Shown piece after piece: positions 5,736-10,288 of a DNA stretch of 10,288 nt. The position numbers were made by a program, and so were the translations under genes. The stretch is taken from the UHGV virus genome UHGV-0129999; one strand, written 5' to 3'. Each line of letters opens with the position of its first letter. Position 1 is the stretch's first letter. The notes below the pieces were generated by a model. That model was not told where the DNA came from. It worked only from the letters and a program-made list of their open reading frames with translations, and did no database searches. Origin of the DNA: a virus.

Positions 5736-5811
5736 TGGTGGCCCCTACCGGACTTGAACCGGTGACCGTGCGATTATGAGTCGCCAGCTCTAACCACTGA
5801 GCTAAAGGGCC
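5736..5811 (-). tRNA. tRNA-Ile (anticodon CAU, lysidine type; automated tools may label it tRNA-Met)
   Basis: Reverse complement GGCCCTTTAGCTCAGTGGTTAGAGCTGGCGACTCATAATCGCACGGTCACCGGTTCAAGTCCGGTAGGGGCCACCA (76 nt) folds as a canonical cloverleaf with encoded CCA; anticodon loop CUCAUAA; anticodon stem-loop nearly identical to E. coli ileX as recalled from memory. One G-A mismatch at the 27-43 pair. Confidence 0.85.
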
Positions 5812-7367: not shown

Positions 7368-7533
7368 GCCAATGTTCTCAACGTTGTAGTGCCGGTTACG
7401 GTTCCGGCCAGGCCTCTTCCTCAACGGGGTGTTCTCCATACGGACTACCGTTTATTGGTCGTTCCTGCGGTTTATGTTGTGAAGCCAGATGCTTATCTTC
7501 TGGTTGCTTCTAAGAGCTGCACTTCATCACAAC

Positions 7534-7615: not shown

Positions 7616-7692
7616 TGGTGCCGATTAACGGACTCGAACCGCTGACATCCTGCTTACAAGGCAGGCGCTCTACCAACTGAGCTAAACCGGCA
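7616..7692 (-). tRNA. tRNA-Thr (anticodon UGU)
   Basis: Reverse complement TGCCGGTTTAGCTCAGTTGGTAGAGCGCCTGCCTTGTAAGCAGGATGTCAGCGGTTCGAGTCCGTTAATCGGCACCA (77 nt): 7-bp acceptor stem, D-arm GCTCAGTTGGTAGAGC, anticodon loop CUUGUAA, T-arm GGTTCGAGTCC, encoded CCA. Confidence 0.85.
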
Positions 7693-7693
7693 T

Positions 7694-7769
7694 TGGCGAT
7701 GGTGGATGGATTTGAACCATCGACCCGTTGATTAACAGTCAACCGCTCTAACCGCTGAGCTACACCATC
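7694..7769 (-). tRNA. tRNA-Asn (anticodon GUU)
   Basis: Reverse complement GATGGTGTAGCTCAGCGGTTAGAGCGGTTGACTGTTAATCAACGGGTCGATGGTTCAAATCCATCCACCATCGCCA (76 nt): canonical cloverleaf, anticodon loop CUGUUAA, encoded CCA; separated from tRNA-Thr by 1 nt. Confidence 0.85.
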
Positions 7770-8000: not shown

Positions 8001-8537
8001 ATGGCCCCTTATGCAGATCTGTCAATGCTGCTTCAACTCGATATTGGTTGGGATGTTTACTGCCGTGCCAATGAGCGAGAAGTTTCAGAACTGCCGATCT
8101 CTATTGCCATTGGTGATGTGAATATTACTAAATCGCTTGAGGACGCTGTTAACGCGCTTAATACATCAAGTTTAGTCGCTGCTATGGGGGAGATTAACCA
8201 GACCCTTAACACTGGCTCAGGAAGCTCGTCAGGCTCTGGTTCAGGCGGCGGCACTGCCACTCCCCCACCAGCACTAACAGAAGAGCAAATTGAATCTCTG
8301 AAAGTAGCAACTGAACAGTTTGGGGTTGTTTTCAACCAGACAACAGCGCCCACAACTGCGTTACAACAGCAGTATGAACGAGCGAAGGAAAGCGCCAACG
8401 TAGCCATAACTGCTTATAACCATGCTATCGGTACCGCGCTTGCGGAAGCATCAGCAAATAAGGTCAGCACAGCCAGCGCAGTTGCCGTTTTGGTTCCTGA
8501 TTCTGTTCTTGATGAATTAAACAAAGCGGCACAGTAA
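8001..8537 (+). CDS. Hypothetical two-domain protein with a Gly/Ser-rich linker (GSGSSSGSGSGGG); function unknown
   Basis: 178-aa ORF on the strand of the downstream genes; no strong Shine-Dalgarno at the ATG at 8001, so the start is uncertain. No TM segment or recognised motif. Confidence 0.45.
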   Translation: MAPYADLSMLLQLDIGWDVYCRANEREVSELPISIAIGDVNITKSLEDAVNALNTSSLVAAMGEINQTLNTGSGSSSGSGSGGGTATPPPALTEEQIESLKVATEQFGVVFNQTTAPTTALQQQYERAKESANVAITAYNHAIGTALAEASANKVSTASAVAVLVPDSVLDELNKAAQ

Positions 8538-8576
8538 CAAAGGACTTCATTGATAATTTTTCTTCAGGAGGAAGGC

Positions 8577-8999
8577 ATGTCATTCTTTTCTACGTTAAAA
8601 ACAGCTTTGTCTTTGAAGGAGAAACTTGCTGCTACTGGTGTTCTTGTTCTGATTTGCGCACTTGTTGGTGCTGGGTTTGCATGGGAACGTCATCAGCTAA
8701 AGCAAGCCATGGAGAAAATTGGCAGTCTTGATCAGGCTGTTAAGGAACGTGATAAGTCAATAATGGATCTTAACCAGACCATTGAGACGATGAACAAAGC
8801 AGAGCAACATTTTCACAGCCAGGAAGTGAAAAATGAATCAGAACAAGCCAAATATGCTGACAGGCAAATGGAACGAAAAGCTGAAGTTCAGAAACAACTG
8901 GTTGCGGCGGGTAATGTTCGCCAGCGCATTCCTGCTGACACTCAGCGGTTGCTCCGGCAGTCGATCAGCGAATTTAACGCCGACGCCGACAAAGGTTAA
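8577..8999 (+). CDS. Rz-like inner-membrane spanin (i-spanin)-like protein: N-terminal TM anchor plus periplasmic coiled coil
   Basis: AGGAGGAAGG Shine-Dalgarno before ATG 8577 (the ORF track's 8550 start is TTG). Single N-terminal TM (LAATGVLVLICALVGAGFAW) then charged helical region; C-terminal QKQLVAAGNVRQRIPADTQRL resembles the lambda Rz segment RDDVAAGRRRLHIKA. Contains an embedded +1-frame lipoprotein gene. Confidence 0.6.
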   Translation: MSFFSTLKTALSLKEKLAATGVLVLICALVGAGFAWERHQLKQAMEKIGSLDQAVKERDKSIMDLNQTIETMNKAEQHFHSQEVKNESEQAKYADRQMERKAEVQKQLVAAGNVRQRIPADTQRLLRQSISEFNADADKG

Positions 9000-9165
9000 C
9001 CACCCTGCCCCCAAAAGTGCATTTATGTGCAGGATGCCAGAGTTTAGCAGTGAATATTTTGATGATCTGCCAGCGTATATCCTCGATACAGAAACGATGC
9101 TGATGGGGATTAACAGGAAGAATCGCAACGTTAATGATTACAACCGAGCTATTAGCGGTAACTAA
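8914..9165 (+). CDS. Rz1-like outer-membrane lipoprotein (o-spanin)-like, starting inside the preceding gene in the +1 frame and extending beyond it
   Basis: ATG at 8914 preceded by GGCGGG; signal peptide MFASAFLLTLSG with lipobox LSGC, Ser at +2 (outer-membrane sorting); Pro-rich mature region (TPTPTKVNHPAP) with a later Cys. The ORF track's 8833 start gives a 27-aa non-hydrophobic extension, so 8914 is preferred. Confidence 0.55.
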   Translation: MFASAFLLTLSGCSGSRSANLTPTPTKVNHPAPKSAFMCRMPEFSSEYFDDLPAYILDTETMLMGINRKNRNVNDYNRAISGN

Positions 9166-9176
9166 AAGGGATTTTT

Positions 9177-9362
9177 ATGTCTGATAAAGTAACAGTAAAG
9201 CAAACTATCAACAAAGCGACTTCAATCTACAAAATTGAGCAAATCACTGTTGGCAAGCCAGGATCTGAACAATACCGTCATGCTCTCGAACTTGCCGATC
9301 AACTTGGTTTAAAACATCCGGATTGTATCGAGCATGTATTTCCGACCTATGCTGATGAGTAA
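9177..9362 (+). CDS. Small hypothetical protein (61 aa); the reading frame continues open after its TAA stop up to 9569
   Basis: AAGGGA Shine-Dalgarno 5 nt before ATG 9177. After TAA at 9360-9362 the same frame stays open for 68 more codons to TAA at 9567-9569, just before a terminator. Confidence 0.4.
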   Translation: MSDKVTVKQTINKATSIYKIEQITVGKPGSEQYRHALELADQLGLKHPDCIEHVFPTYADE

Positions 9363-9583
9363 TGTACTCATGTTCTTACCGAAGAGGATTTTTTCAGCAC
9401 TGAAGAACGAGAAGGAGTTGATCGCTGCATTGGTGTGATTTGCTCTTCAGTGAGTTATGAGTTATTCCCTAATGTCCATGAAGATGGTGGTGTTGGATAC
9501 CAATTCCTGTATGAAGGCGATGAGCTTAAATGTTATGAACATGGTCTTCTTATCGAAAGCGTAGAATAATATGACTTCCTTCC

Positions 9584-9608
9584 AACCGGCTTTGTTGGCC
9601 GGTTTATT
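9584..9608 (+). terminator. Rho-independent terminator closing the + strand gene set upstream of the origin
   Basis: 7-bp stem AACCGGC (9584-9590) / GCCGGTT (9598-9604), 7-nt loop, then TTTATT. Confidence 0.5.
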
Positions 9609-9612
9609 CAAC

Positions 9613-9621
9613 TTATCCACA
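9613..9621 (+). promoter_or_regulatory. Consensus DnaA box (TTATCCACA) at the edge of the plasmid origin
   Basis: Exact 9/9 match to the DnaA box consensus, adjacent to the GATC cluster and iterons. Confidence 0.5.
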
Positions 9622-9626
9622 GCATA

Positions 9627-9720
9627 GATCCAATAAACAGATCCTAAAGAGAACCTAGGAAGATCCAAAGAAGATCCCGGATCGCTGTAAGCCGCGTCAT
9701 TACTGGCCTGAAATGGGATC
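9627..9720. promoter_or_regulatory. GATC-rich (Dam methylation/SeqA-type) origin region with AGATCC repeats
   Basis: Six GATC sites in 94 bp (9627, 9640, 9662, 9673, 9680, 9717) against about 0.4 expected by chance; four occur as AGATCC. Confidence 0.55.
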
Positions 9721-9724
9721 AACA

Positions 9725-9831
9725 TTGACTATACGCGATTTTATGTTGACTGTGCACGATTTATTGTTGACTGCACGCGATTTATTGTTGACTATACGCG
9801 ACAGAAACATTGACTGTAAGCGATTTTAGAG
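9725..9831 (+). repeat. Five tandem 21-22 bp direct repeats (iterons; putative RepA binding sites) upstream of the rep gene
   Basis: TTGACTATACGCGATTTTATG / TTGACTGTGCACGATTTATTG / TTGACTGCACGCGATTTATTG / TTGACTATACGCGACAGAAACA / TTGACTGTAAGCGATTTTAGAG, head-to-tail with no spacers, each starting with TTGACT; they end about 70 bp before the rep start codon. Confidence 0.7.
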
Positions 9832-9904
9832 TCTGAATATTCACAGCTGTTGATAACAGCCATCCAAATTGACGTCAGGCCGCGCCACACATGGAGAAAC
9901 CGTG

Positions 9905-10288
9905 ATGCCGGAAGAAAGTAAAGGCTTCCTTAGCGTTGAAGAAGTTGCAGGAAATACAGGAGAAATCCACAGCCTGAAGCCCAATAACAACAGCACTATA
10001 CAACCCATCGCTTTGTTGCGCTTAGGTGTGTTTGTGCCAACCTTAAAATCTACCAATGTGGCGCTACGTCGCGGATCGTCAGTTACAACAAACACAACGA
10101 ACGCAACTGAAGAACTATCAAGCCTCAAAATTGTTGAGCAGGAAGGCTATGAGGGAATTGAAATTCATGGTCCACGCCTGGATATGGATACTGATTTTAA
10201 GGTGTGGGTGGGCATAACCTCCGCGTTGTTTGACTACGCACCTGATGATGACGGCATAATCACCCTGCCATTCTCCGCGTAGATCGGA
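9905..10288 (+). CDS. repA: Plasmid replication initiator, RepA family (P1 RepA-like), 5' partial, continues beyond the window
   Basis: GGAGAA Shine-Dalgarno 8 nt before ATG 9905 (the ORF track starts at an upstream TTG). Segments NSTIQPIALLRLGVFVPT and [25 protein letters not shown] closely resemble the P1 RepA N-terminus as recalled from memory ([40 protein letters not shown]). Preceded by iterons, GATC cluster and DnaA box. Confidence 0.8.

What the first reader, a model, noticed from the sequence alone, without database searches (positions are those of the whole stretch)
8577..9165. Embedded Rz/Rz1-like spanin-type gene pair located next to the plasmid origin, with no holin or endolysin nearby
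The pair has the hallmark architecture: a type II membrane protein with periplasmic coiled coil, and a +1-frame lipoprotein gene with Pro-rich mature part that starts inside it and extends past its stop. Spanins normally sit in a lysis cassette; here the neighbours are a hypothetical protein, a small ORF and the replication origin. If they are true spanins, lysis genes are dispersed. If not, they are an uncharacterised envelope-spanning pair. They may be the genes annotated in P1 as a membrane lipoprotein precursor and a periplasmic protein; that is from memory.
Basis: partly seen in the sequence, partly recalled or inferred. Interest (0 to 1): 0.5.

Follow-up and report, generated by a model that had tools for sequence, protein, structure and literature searches.

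The report
Phage P1 spanin genes ppfA/mlp
This is the already catalogued two-gene "spanin" pair (ppfA/mlp) of a P1-like phage-plasmid, predicted to break the host's outer membrane at the end of infection; it is real and under selection, but ordinary and already described.

Summary
Window 8577-8999 encodes a 140-aa protein with one N-terminal membrane helix and a long helical periplasmic part. Window 8833-9165 encodes, in the +1 frame, a 110-aa lipoprotein precursor (lipobox LSGC, Cys40). That gene starts inside the first and runs 166 nt past its stop.

The window is 98% identical to phage P1/P7, and the pair is P1 ppfA/mlp. Summer 2007 identified these genes as Rz/Rz1 equivalents. Kongari 2018 lists them as an "overlapped" i-spanin/o-spanin. 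RefSeq names mlp "Rz-like spanin". Bednarek 2022 calls them P1's spanin genes, in an operon unlinked to the other lysis genes and not verified experimentally.

- Relatives with only about 60% PpfA identity keep the +1 lipoprotein frame.
- Past the ppfA stop, dN/dS is below 0.1 in the mlp frame only.
- Mlp is a detectable homologue of P2 LysC, which sits in a lysis cassette.
- The upstream neighbour is a truncated baseplate gene (upfB), not an anonymous ORF.

Verdict: already known, low interest.

The parts
8566..8571 (+). Shine-Dalgarno AGGAGG for ppfA, 5 nt upstream of the ATG
   Evidence: Read from the sequence. Conserved as AGGAGG in P1 and in the diverged relatives L003, L084, L086 and L088.
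8577..8999 (+). ppfA: predicted i-spanin, 140 aa, type II inner-membrane protein
   Evidence: ORF. 98-99% identical to P1/P7 PpfA. PHROG phrog_89 'Rz-like spanin' E = 1.1e-25. AlphaFold2 helices 13-110 and 120-137. dN/dS 0.18-0.27 against relatives about 60% identical.
8625..8681 (+). Transmembrane segment of PpfA (residues 17-35, LAATGVLVLICALVGAGFA)
   Evidence: Highest Kyte-Doolittle 19-mer, mean 2.35. Kongari 2018 records a 36-residue N-terminal part and 104 periplasmic residues for P1 gp064.
8821..8826 (+). Shine-Dalgarno-like AGGAAG in front of the annotated mlp start; lies inside ppfA codons Q-E-V
   Evidence: It reads AGGAGG in the four diverged lineages L003, L084, L086 and L088, each 8-9 nt before an ATG in the mlp frame.
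8833..9165 (+). mlp: predicted o-spanin, outer-membrane lipoprotein precursor, 110 aa as annotated, +1 frame relative to ppfA
   Evidence: ORF. P1 Mlp, named 'Rz-like spanin' in RefSeq. phrog_30284 E = 2e-77 and phrog_456 (the P2 LysC family) E = 4e-5. BLASTP to P2 LysC E = 5e-8. Purifying selection in this frame only.
8833..8999 (+). Dual-coding overlap of 167 nt. It encodes PpfA residues 86-140, and in the mlp frame the Mlp signal peptide plus about the first 16 mature residues.
   Evidence: Coordinates. Nucleotide identity to diverged relatives rises to 0.83-0.88 over 8902-8996, against 0.60-0.63 in the ppfA-only part.
8902..8916 (+). Alternative internal mlp starts: TTG 8902 (gives M-RRVMFASAFLLTLSGC) and ATG 8914
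   Evidence: An ATG aligns with 8902 in L084, L086 and L088, but not in L003. Every candidate start gives the same mature protein.
8941..8952 (+). Lipobox L-S-G-C (Mlp residues 37-40); Cys40 is the predicted lipidation site and is followed by Ser
   Evidence: Pattern match. Variants LSAC, LNAC and LNGC occur in relatives. Kongari 2018 reports a LipoP cleavage site at position 39 for P1.
8950..9162 (+). Mature Mlp, 71 aa: a Pro/Thr-containing linker followed by a conserved C-terminal domain (FMCRMPEF...YFDDLPAYILDTETML.GINRKNRNVN.YN)
   Evidence: Alignments A2 and A3. A low-confidence AlphaFold2 model shows residues 41-72 without secondary structure and short helices at 73-108.
9028..9030 (+). 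Codon of Mlp Cys66 (mature Cys27), the only periplasmic cysteine of the pair
   Evidence: Invariant in the six P1-like lineages and P2 LysC in alignment A3. PpfA has no periplasmic Cys.
8010..8537 (+). 3' part of upfB, the upstream co-directional gene. Its 5' end and upfC are missing from this window.
   Evidence: BLASTN map: window 8009-9696 equals P1 locus L001 5610-7302. P1 upfB is at L001 5293-6138. UpfB is the baseplate 'tripod' and UpfC the spike tip by cryo-EM (PMC12810830).
9177..9569 (+). upfA, the downstream co-directional gene (Gp49-family). Here it is interrupted by a nonsense codon at 9360-9362.
   Evidence: Comparison with MH422554 and P1. PF13876 is recorded on homologues.

Best explanation
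The two genes are the ppfA/mlp pair of a P1-like phage-plasmid and most likely form a two-component spanin of the 'overlapped' gene architecture.

PpfA inserts in the inner membrane through its N-terminal helix and projects a helical domain of about 104 residues into the periplasm. Mlp is exported, lipidated at Cys40, and sorted to the outer membrane because Ser, not Asp, follows the Cys. It probably forms a homodimer through its single conserved periplasmic cysteine. The C-terminal parts of the two proteins are inferred to bind, making a bridge across the periplasm that is held in check by the peptidoglycan mesh. During lytic growth the SAR endolysin Lyz, released by LydA/LydD, destroys the cell wall. 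The bridges can then collapse and fuse the inner and outer membranes, removing the last barrier to virion release.

Shown here: the gene structure, the targeting signals, purifying selection on both frames, conservation across P1-like elements, and homology of Mlp to P2 LysC.

Inferred from the lambda, T4 and T1 work, not shown for P1: complex formation, membrane fusion, and timing of expression.
For: - Identity with P1/P7 ppfA-mlp at 98.4% nt.
- P1 gp064/gp063 are curated as an overlapped i-/o-spanin, with combined periplasmic length 175 aa, 0 plus 1 periplasmic Cys, and a LipoP cleavage site at position 39 (PMC6139136 supplement).
- P1 literature names them the spanin genes, in an operon unlinked to the other lysis genes (PMC9025707).
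- TM helix, helical periplasmic domain and heptad pattern in PpfA.
- Lipobox with Ser at +2 in Mlp.
- Both frames are intact in 87 of 88 (ppfA) and 88 of 88 (mlp) related loci.
- dN/dS is below 0.1 in the mlp frame beyond the ppfA stop and above 1.5 in the other frames. Nucleotide conservation is raised in the dual-coding stretch.
- The same overlapped pair sits in the same place in diverged P1-like elements from Cronobacter, Klebsiella and Salmonella and in a more distant 94-kb element.
- Mlp against P2 LysC: 37% identity over 68 aa, E = 5e-8. The lipobox Cys, the second Cys and an M-P motif are conserved.
- Reciprocal PHROG cross-hits: Mlp to phrog_456, and LysC to phrog_30284. PpfA and P2 LysB both hit phrog_89.
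- P2 lysB/lysC lie directly after the holin and endolysin genes and are also overlapped.
- The P1 lyz operon holds no other spanin candidate.
- The genes just upstream in P1 (upfC, upfB) encode virion baseplate parts, so the cluster serves lytic growth.
Against: - No experiment has shown spanin activity for PpfA/Mlp.
- CRISPRi knock-down leaves plaque formation intact: efficiency of plating (EOP) is 0.2 for mlp and 1.2-1.3 for ppfA. Spanins are also dispensable under standard laboratory conditions.
- The pair is not in a lysis cassette.
- No Lpa-type late promoter motif was found upstream. The P1 record lists only predicted sigma-70 promoters.
- No Pfam spanin family matches.
- PpfA shows no significant direct similarity to P2 LysB: BLASTP E = 61, hhalign probability 1.25%, and TIGR03495 19.5 bits against a cutoff of 92.75.
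- The annotated Mlp signal peptide is unusually long at 39 residues.
- The mature Mlp lacks the poly-proline stretch that is functionally important in lambda Rz1.
Confidence: 0.8

Rival explanations
1. The pair spans the envelope but its main role is not lysis. It would be expressed from ordinary sigma-70 promoters in the plasmid prophage, next to the replication and partition region, and serve the lysogen, for example in exclusion of other phages or plasmids or in envelope modification. The resemblance to spanins would reflect shared ancestry or convergence.
For: - The pair lies immediately upstream of oriR-repA-parAB and away from lyz and lydAB.
- Only sigma-70 promoters are predicted in the P1 record, and no late-promoter motif was found.
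- Both genes are non-essential for plaque formation.
- The family is confined to P1-like phage-plasmids. Only 33 representatives reach E <= 0.001 among 1.84 billion proteins, and most are fragments of the same family.
- The pair stays intact in this window, although neighbouring genes are deleted or carry stop codons.
Against: - Mlp is homologous to P2 LysC, which sits in a lysis cassette.
- The full set of sequence-level spanin criteria is met.
- The co-directional upstream genes encode baseplate proteins made in lytic growth.
- Spanin genes unlinked to holin and endolysin genes are known from T4.
- Dispensability in the laboratory is expected for spanins.
- P1 would otherwise have no spanin candidate in the lyz operon or in the curated survey.
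Confidence: 0.12
2. Only ppfA is a real gene. The +1 'lipoprotein' frame is an accidental open frame that is not translated.
For: - Gene callers usually miss it or call only a 46-65-codon piece from an internal Met.
- The first 23 codons of the annotated frame (8833-8901) evolve without constraint in that frame, with dN/dS 2.4-5.3.
Against: - Beyond the ppfA stop, substitutions are almost all synonymous in the mlp frame, with dN/dS about 0.09, against 1.5-2.8 in the other frames.
- The frame, lipobox and second Cys are kept in all 88 loci, including lineages with only about 60% PpfA identity and a more distant one.
- Mlp shows sequence homology to P2 LysC.
- A conserved Shine-Dalgarno sequence plus ATG lies upstream in the P1-type sequences and the four ~60% lineages examined.
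Confidence: 0.02

Closest known systems
Phage P1 / P7 PpfA (gp064) and Mlp (gp063)
   Same: This is the same locus. It is 98.4% identical in nucleotides, with the same coordinates relative to upfB, upfA and oriR and the same overlap. The window's pair differs from P1 at 5 nucleotides.
   Different: - The surrounding element differs from P1. 4.35 kb upstream (dmt to the 5' end of upfB) is missing, and upfA carries a stop codon.
- The replicon downstream is of the MH422554 'RepFIB' type rather than the P1 RepA type.
Phage P2 LysB / LysC (overlapped spanin; phrog_89 / phrog_456; TIGR03495)
   Same: - Same overlapped +1 architecture: about 146 nt of overlap in P2 and 167 nt here.
- Similar sizes: 141 and 96 aa in P2, 140 and 110 aa here.
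- Mlp and LysC are homologous, sharing the lipobox Cys, the second Cys and an M-P motif.
- PpfA and LysB both hit phrog_89.
   Different: - P2's pair follows holin Y, endolysin K and lysA inside a late operon. P1's pair is far from lyz and lydAB.
- PpfA and LysB show no significant direct similarity.
Lambda Rz / Rz1
   Same: Same predicted topology and division of labour: a type II inner-membrane protein with helical periplasmic domains, plus a small outer-membrane lipoprotein encoded in the +1 frame. At least one periplasmic Cys is available for a homotypic disulfide.
   Different: - Rz1 is fully embedded in Rz, whereas here the lipoprotein gene runs past the stop.
- There is no sequence similarity and no Pfam spanin hit.
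- There is no penta-proline stretch.
- PpfA has no periplasmic Cys, whereas Rz has two.
T4 PseT.3 / PseT.2
   Same: - The spanin genes are not next to the holin and endolysin genes.
- The i-spanin has no periplasmic Cys.
- The o-spanin is larger and has predicted helical content.
   Different: - The T4 genes are separated, not overlapped.
- The T4 o-spanin has two essential Cys.
- T4 function has been shown by complementation, which has not been done for P1.

Membership tests
Two-component spanin (i-spanin + o-spanin, Rz/Rz1 equivalents) | i-spanin: a single N-terminal transmembrane domain, N-in/C-out | tested here: met
   Hydropathy peak at residues 17-35 (mean 2.35). Net positive N-terminal tail with 3 K/R and 1 D/E. 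AlphaFold2 helix over 13-110. The topology itself is predicted, not measured.
Two-component spanin (i-spanin + o-spanin, Rz/Rz1 equivalents) | i-spanin periplasmic domain mostly alpha-helical: two helices joined by a linker, with coiled-coil character | tested here: met
   AlphaFold2 helices 13-110 and 120-137 with a break at 111-119, mean pLDDT 67. Heptad a/d hydrophobicity of 0.75-0.88 for windows starting at residues 36-52.
Two-component spanin (i-spanin + o-spanin, Rz/Rz1 equivalents) | o-spanin: small lipoprotein with signal peptide, lipobox Cys, and no inner-membrane retention signal (no Asp at +2) | tested here: met
   LSGC at residues 37-40, followed by Ser-Gly. Conserved, with variants LSAC, LNAC and LNGC. 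A LipoP cleavage site at position 39 is reported for P1. The signal peptide is unusually long if the ATG at 8833 is used.
Two-component spanin (i-spanin + o-spanin, Rz/Rz1 equivalents) | Adjacent genes in embedded, overlapped or separated arrangement | tested here: met
   Overlapped arrangement: +1 frame, 167 nt shared and 166 nt beyond the ppfA stop. Classed 'ovl' by Kongari 2018.
Two-component spanin (i-spanin + o-spanin, Rz/Rz1 equivalents) | At least one periplasmic cysteine in either subunit, for a homotypic disulfide | tested here: met
   Mlp Cys66 is invariant in alignment A3, which includes P2 LysC. PpfA has none. 507 of 528 catalogued two-component spanins meet this rule.
Two-component spanin (i-spanin + o-spanin, Rz/Rz1 equivalents) | Subunits bind through their C-terminal parts and together span the periplasm | not testable with these tools
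   The combined periplasmic length of 104 + 71 = 175 residues is recorded. No complex prediction or binding assay was available.
Two-component spanin (i-spanin + o-spanin, Rz/Rz1 equivalents) | Required for outer-membrane disruption; complements the lambda Rz-/Rz1- lysis defect | not testable with these tools
   Stated as not verified experimentally for P1. CRISPRi scores both genes non-essential for plaques.
Two-component spanin (i-spanin + o-spanin, Rz/Rz1 equivalents) | Expressed with the other lysis genes late in infection (usual, not strictly defining) | tested here: inconclusive
   No AAGTGAYTT-N4-TANNNT late-promoter motif near the pair in the window, nor between upl and gene 23 in P1 other than LP23. 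The motif was derived from only two annotated examples. The sigma-70 consensus scan found nothing above chance. Upstream co-directional genes are virion baseplate genes.
P2 LysB/LysC-type spanins | o-spanin homologous to LysC | tested here: met
   BLASTP 37% identity over 68 aa, E = 5e-8. Mlp hits phrog_456 at 4e-5, and LysC hits phrog_30284 at 5.4e-4.
P2 LysB/LysC-type spanins | i-spanin homologous to LysB (TIGR03495 equivalog) | tested here: inconclusive
   Both proteins hit phrog_89: PpfA at 1.1e-25 and LysB at 5.8e-61. However, TIGR03495 scores 19.5 bits against a cutoff of 92.75, BLASTP gives E = 61, and hhalign probability is 1.25%.
P2 LysB/LysC-type spanins | Located directly after holin and endolysin in the lysis cassette | tested here: not met
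   No holin or endolysin in the window. In P1 the pair is about 43 kb from lyz.
Lambda Rz/Rz1 family | Sequence membership (Pfam Rz / Rz1 models), fully embedded Rz1, central poly-proline stretch | tested here: not met
   No Pfam spanin family hit at E <= 1. The lipoprotein gene extends past the stop. There are 6 scattered Pro and no run.

The most novel reading that the evidence does not exclude
The P1-type pair may be more than a late lysis device. It sits beside the plasmid replication and partition genes and has no recognisable late promoter. Its lipoprotein carries a long, basic, fast-evolving N-terminal extension in front of the signal peptide, and the upstream ATG and Shine-Dalgarno sequence are conserved in the lineages examined. 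The pair might therefore be made already in the lysogen, or be regulated at the level of translation start choice or lipoprotein maturation, giving it a second, lysogen-side role or a built-in timing control.
Probability: 0.1. Interest if true: 0.45.

Novelty: already known. Interest (0 to 1): 0.12.

Why it matters
It matters little beyond annotation. The finding rediscovers, correctly and from raw sequence, the known spanin candidate of phage P1.

- For genome annotation, it is a good example of an overlapped lipoprotein gene that gene callers miss or truncate. Several public P1-like records call only the last 46 codons 'Rz1', and many records call mlp 'hypothetical'.
- For P1 biology, the open points are modest. 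Spanin activity of PpfA/Mlp has never been shown directly. The true mlp start is unresolved. Nobody has reported when the upfC-upfA cluster is transcribed.

Tried and rejected
- Pfam on both proteins gave only weak coiled-coil noise for PpfA and nothing for Mlp. NCBIfam gave only a sub-threshold LysB hit.
- Sequence search of the Protein Data Bank found nothing for either protein. No fold search was run, because the models were only moderately (PpfA, pLDDT 67) or poorly (Mlp, pLDDT 56) confident.
- The exhaustive HMMER search with a PpfA profile found almost only the same narrow family, plus two more distant full-length relatives. One of these (P0078) could be placed, on a 94-kb P1-like contig with the same gene order. 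The other (P0083) was not found in viral contigs.
- Direct PpfA-LysB comparison by BLASTP and hhalign was not significant.
- Searches for a P1 late promoter and for sigma-70 promoters or terminators around the pair gave nothing useful.
- upl/plp in the window were considered as a second lipoprotein pair and rejected. Upl has no membrane segment evident in its translated sequence. The plp frame is Cys-rich, overlaps tRNA genes and carries a stop here.
- lydD/lydE next to lyz were considered as an alternative spanin and rejected. LydD is a two-TM pinholin, and neither LydE nor any other frame in the lyz-lydD-lydE stretch shows a lipoprotein signal (a lipobox soon after a start codon).
- The Lobocka 2004 P1 genome paper could not be read.

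Full report
**What is there**

The window carries an ORF at 8577-8999 (140 aa), preceded by AGGAGG at 8566-8571. A second ORF at 8833-9165 (110 aa) lies in the +1 frame. It begins inside the first ORF, shares 167 nt with it, and continues 166 nt past its stop.

The first protein has one strongly hydrophobic stretch at residues 17-35 (Kyte-Doolittle mean 2.35) behind a net-positive 16-residue tail. Its remaining 104 residues are one-third charged. An AlphaFold2 model built on 14 homologues (mean pLDDT 67) shows a continuous helix over residues 13-110, a break at 111-119, and a second helix at 120-137. Heptad positions a/d are 75-88% hydrophobic in windows starting at residues 36-52.

The second protein has the lipobox L-S-G-C, with Cys at residue 40 followed by Ser. 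The mature part is 71 residues.

- A gene that runs past the stop of its partner is 'overlapped', not 'embedded', in spanin nomenclature.
- The mature lipoprotein is only 8.5% proline. It has 6 Pro in 71 residues, five of them in the first 31, and no proline run.

**Identity**

The region is 98.4% identical to phages P1 and P7, and the whole window is a P1-like phage-plasmid. In the P1 record the two ORFs are ppfA ('possible periplasmic function') and mlp ('membrane lipoprotein precursor', named 'Rz-like spanin' in RefSeq). They are followed by upfA, oriR and repA.

**Is the lipoprotein frame real?**

I collected 88 related loci from phage records, viral contigs and assemblies.
- All 88 keep the +1 frame and a lipobox. 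87 of 88 keep a full-length ppfA.
- Lineages from Cronobacter, Klebsiella and Salmonella have PpfA only about 60% identical. They keep the overlapped pair in the same place: upfC-upfB-ppfA/mlp-upfA-repA-parAB-gene 23.
- A more distant 94-kb element does the same.

Nei-Gojobori counts against three of the ~60% lineages (L084, L086, L088) show selection on both frames:
- Beyond the ppfA stop, the mlp frame has dN 0.13-0.16 with synonymous sites at or near saturation. dN/dS is 0.09 where it can be computed. The other two frames give 1.5-2.8.
- ppfA alone has dN/dS 0.18-0.27.
- Nucleotide identity rises from 0.60-0.63 in the ppfA-only part to 0.83-0.88 in the stretch that codes for both proteins. 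This is what dual coding predicts.

The lipoprotein gene is real and under purifying selection.

**Start of mlp**

The annotated start at ATG 8833 gives a 39-residue signal peptide, which Kongari et al. flagged as 'too long'. Codons 1-23 evolve freely in the mlp frame, with dN/dS 2.4-5.3. Internal starts exist at TTG 8902 and ATG 8914.

An ATG aligns with 8902 in three diverged lineages but not in the Cronobacter phage. The upstream ATG, with an AGGAGG/AGGAAG motif 8-9 nt before it, is present in the P1-type sequences and in the four ~60% lineages examined. The start remains unresolved. Every option yields the same mature lipoprotein.

**What it most likely does**

The pair meets every sequence-level criterion for a two-component spanin:
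- a type II inner-membrane protein with two periplasmic helices;
- a small outer-membrane lipoprotein;
- adjacent overlapped genes;
- 175 periplasmic residues in total;
- at least one periplasmic cysteine.

That cysteine, Mlp Cys66, is invariant across the P1-like lineages aligned and aligns with a Cys of P2 LysC.

Mlp is a detectable homologue of P2 LysC: 37% identity over 68 aa, with BLASTP E = 5e-8 and reciprocal PHROG cross-hits. P2 lysB/lysC are overlapped in the same way and lie directly after the P2 holin and endolysin genes.

PpfA and P2 LysB both match PHROG family 89. Direct comparisons of the two are not significant, so homology of the inner-membrane subunits is unproven.

The inferred mechanism is the one established for lambda and T4. 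A periplasm-spanning complex is restrained by peptidoglycan. Once the endolysin has removed the wall, the complex fuses the inner and outer membranes. For P1 this is inference. Bednarek et al. state that the function of ppfA/mlp has not been verified experimentally. CRISPRi knock-down of either gene leaves plaque formation intact, as expected for spanins under laboratory conditions.

**Context**

Pfam finds no holin or endolysin in the window. The other ORFs are tail and baseplate proteins, a glycosyltransferase, the Ban helicase, an SPFH protein and RepA.

Dispersed lysis genes are a documented peculiarity of P1. lyz-lydD-lydE, lydC and lydA-lydB lie in separate operons, and ppfA/mlp in yet another. 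I checked the P1 lyz operon and found no lipoprotein or type II pair there. T4 is a precedent for spanin genes unlinked to holin and endolysin.

The 'hypothetical protein' upstream is the 3' part of upfB. A 2026 cryo-EM study assigns UpfB to a baseplate 'tripod' and UpfC to the spike tip. The pair therefore ends a co-directional cluster of lytic-cycle genes that happens to abut the plasmid origin.

I found no Lpa-type late promoter motif near the pair, but the motif rests on only two annotated examples. The P1 record lists only predicted sigma-70 promoters. Timing of expression is open.

**Prior knowledge and verdict**

The identification is already published:
- P1 gp064/gp063 are listed as an overlapped i-spanin/o-spanin in the supplement of Kongari et al. 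2018.
- Bednarek et al. cite Summer et al. 2007 for the original identification.
- RefSeq carries the 'Rz-like spanin' name.

What remains open is experimental proof, the translation start, and the promoter.

Noticed in passing
window 8009/8010: Relative to P1 and MH422554 the window lacks 4.35 kb. The missing stretch holds the dicF-like region, the ban promoter and operator, dmt, hrdC, uhr, the dmt promoter and C1 operator, upfC, and the first 317 nt of upfB. The junction is found in none of 88 related loci, none of 5426 complete E. coli genomes and none of 641 matching plasmid records. It is either a rare deletion in a defective element or an assembly or splicing artefact.
   Followed up: partly
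window 803/804: A second clean deletion of 1451 bp relative to MH422554 lies in the tail/baseplate genes. It leaves one long open frame across the junction (window ORF 131-1399, 422 aa) where MH422554 has three genes.
   Followed up: partly
window 9360-9362: upfA (Gp49-family) carries a CAA to TAA nonsense change (Q62*) compared with P1 and MH422554. The rest of the gene is intact and in frame.
   Followed up: yes
window 9700-10288: The match to P1 ends at about 9696. The iteron region and the start of repA follow the MH422554 type, annotated 'RepFIB replication protein A', rather than P1 RepA. This suggests a mosaic replicon swap just downstream of the spanin cluster.
   Followed up: no
window 9025-9165 (equivalent to L002 15305-15445): Several public P1-like records annotate 'Rz1' as only the last 46 codons, starting at an internal Met (MCRMPEF...). 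That call lacks the signal peptide and the lipobox. Gene callers on diverged relatives make the same truncated 46-52-codon call or miss the gene altogether.
   Followed up: yes
literature, PMC9025707 introduction: The text labels ppfA as the o-spanin and mlp as the i-spanin. The sequences show the reverse: PpfA has the membrane helix and Mlp has the lipobox. Kongari 2018 lists gp064 as the i-spanin and gp063 as the o-spanin.
   Followed up: yes
window 5736-5811, 7616-7691, 7694-7769 (minus strand): There are three tRNA genes: anticodon CAT (called Met by ARAGORN), Thr(TGT) and Asn(GTT). The last two correspond to P1 trnT and trnA. The annotated P1 plp 'lipoprotein' frame overlaps trnT, is Cys-rich, and has a stop codon at 7511-7513 in this window, which makes plp a doubtful gene.
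   Followed up: partly
L084 and L086 (diverged P1-like elements), Mlp lipobox: The lipobox reads LNAC or LNGC, with Asn at -2. This lies outside the usual [LVI][ASTVI][GAS]C consensus. LNGC is among the deviant o-spanin lipoboxes listed by Kongari 2018.
   Followed up: partly
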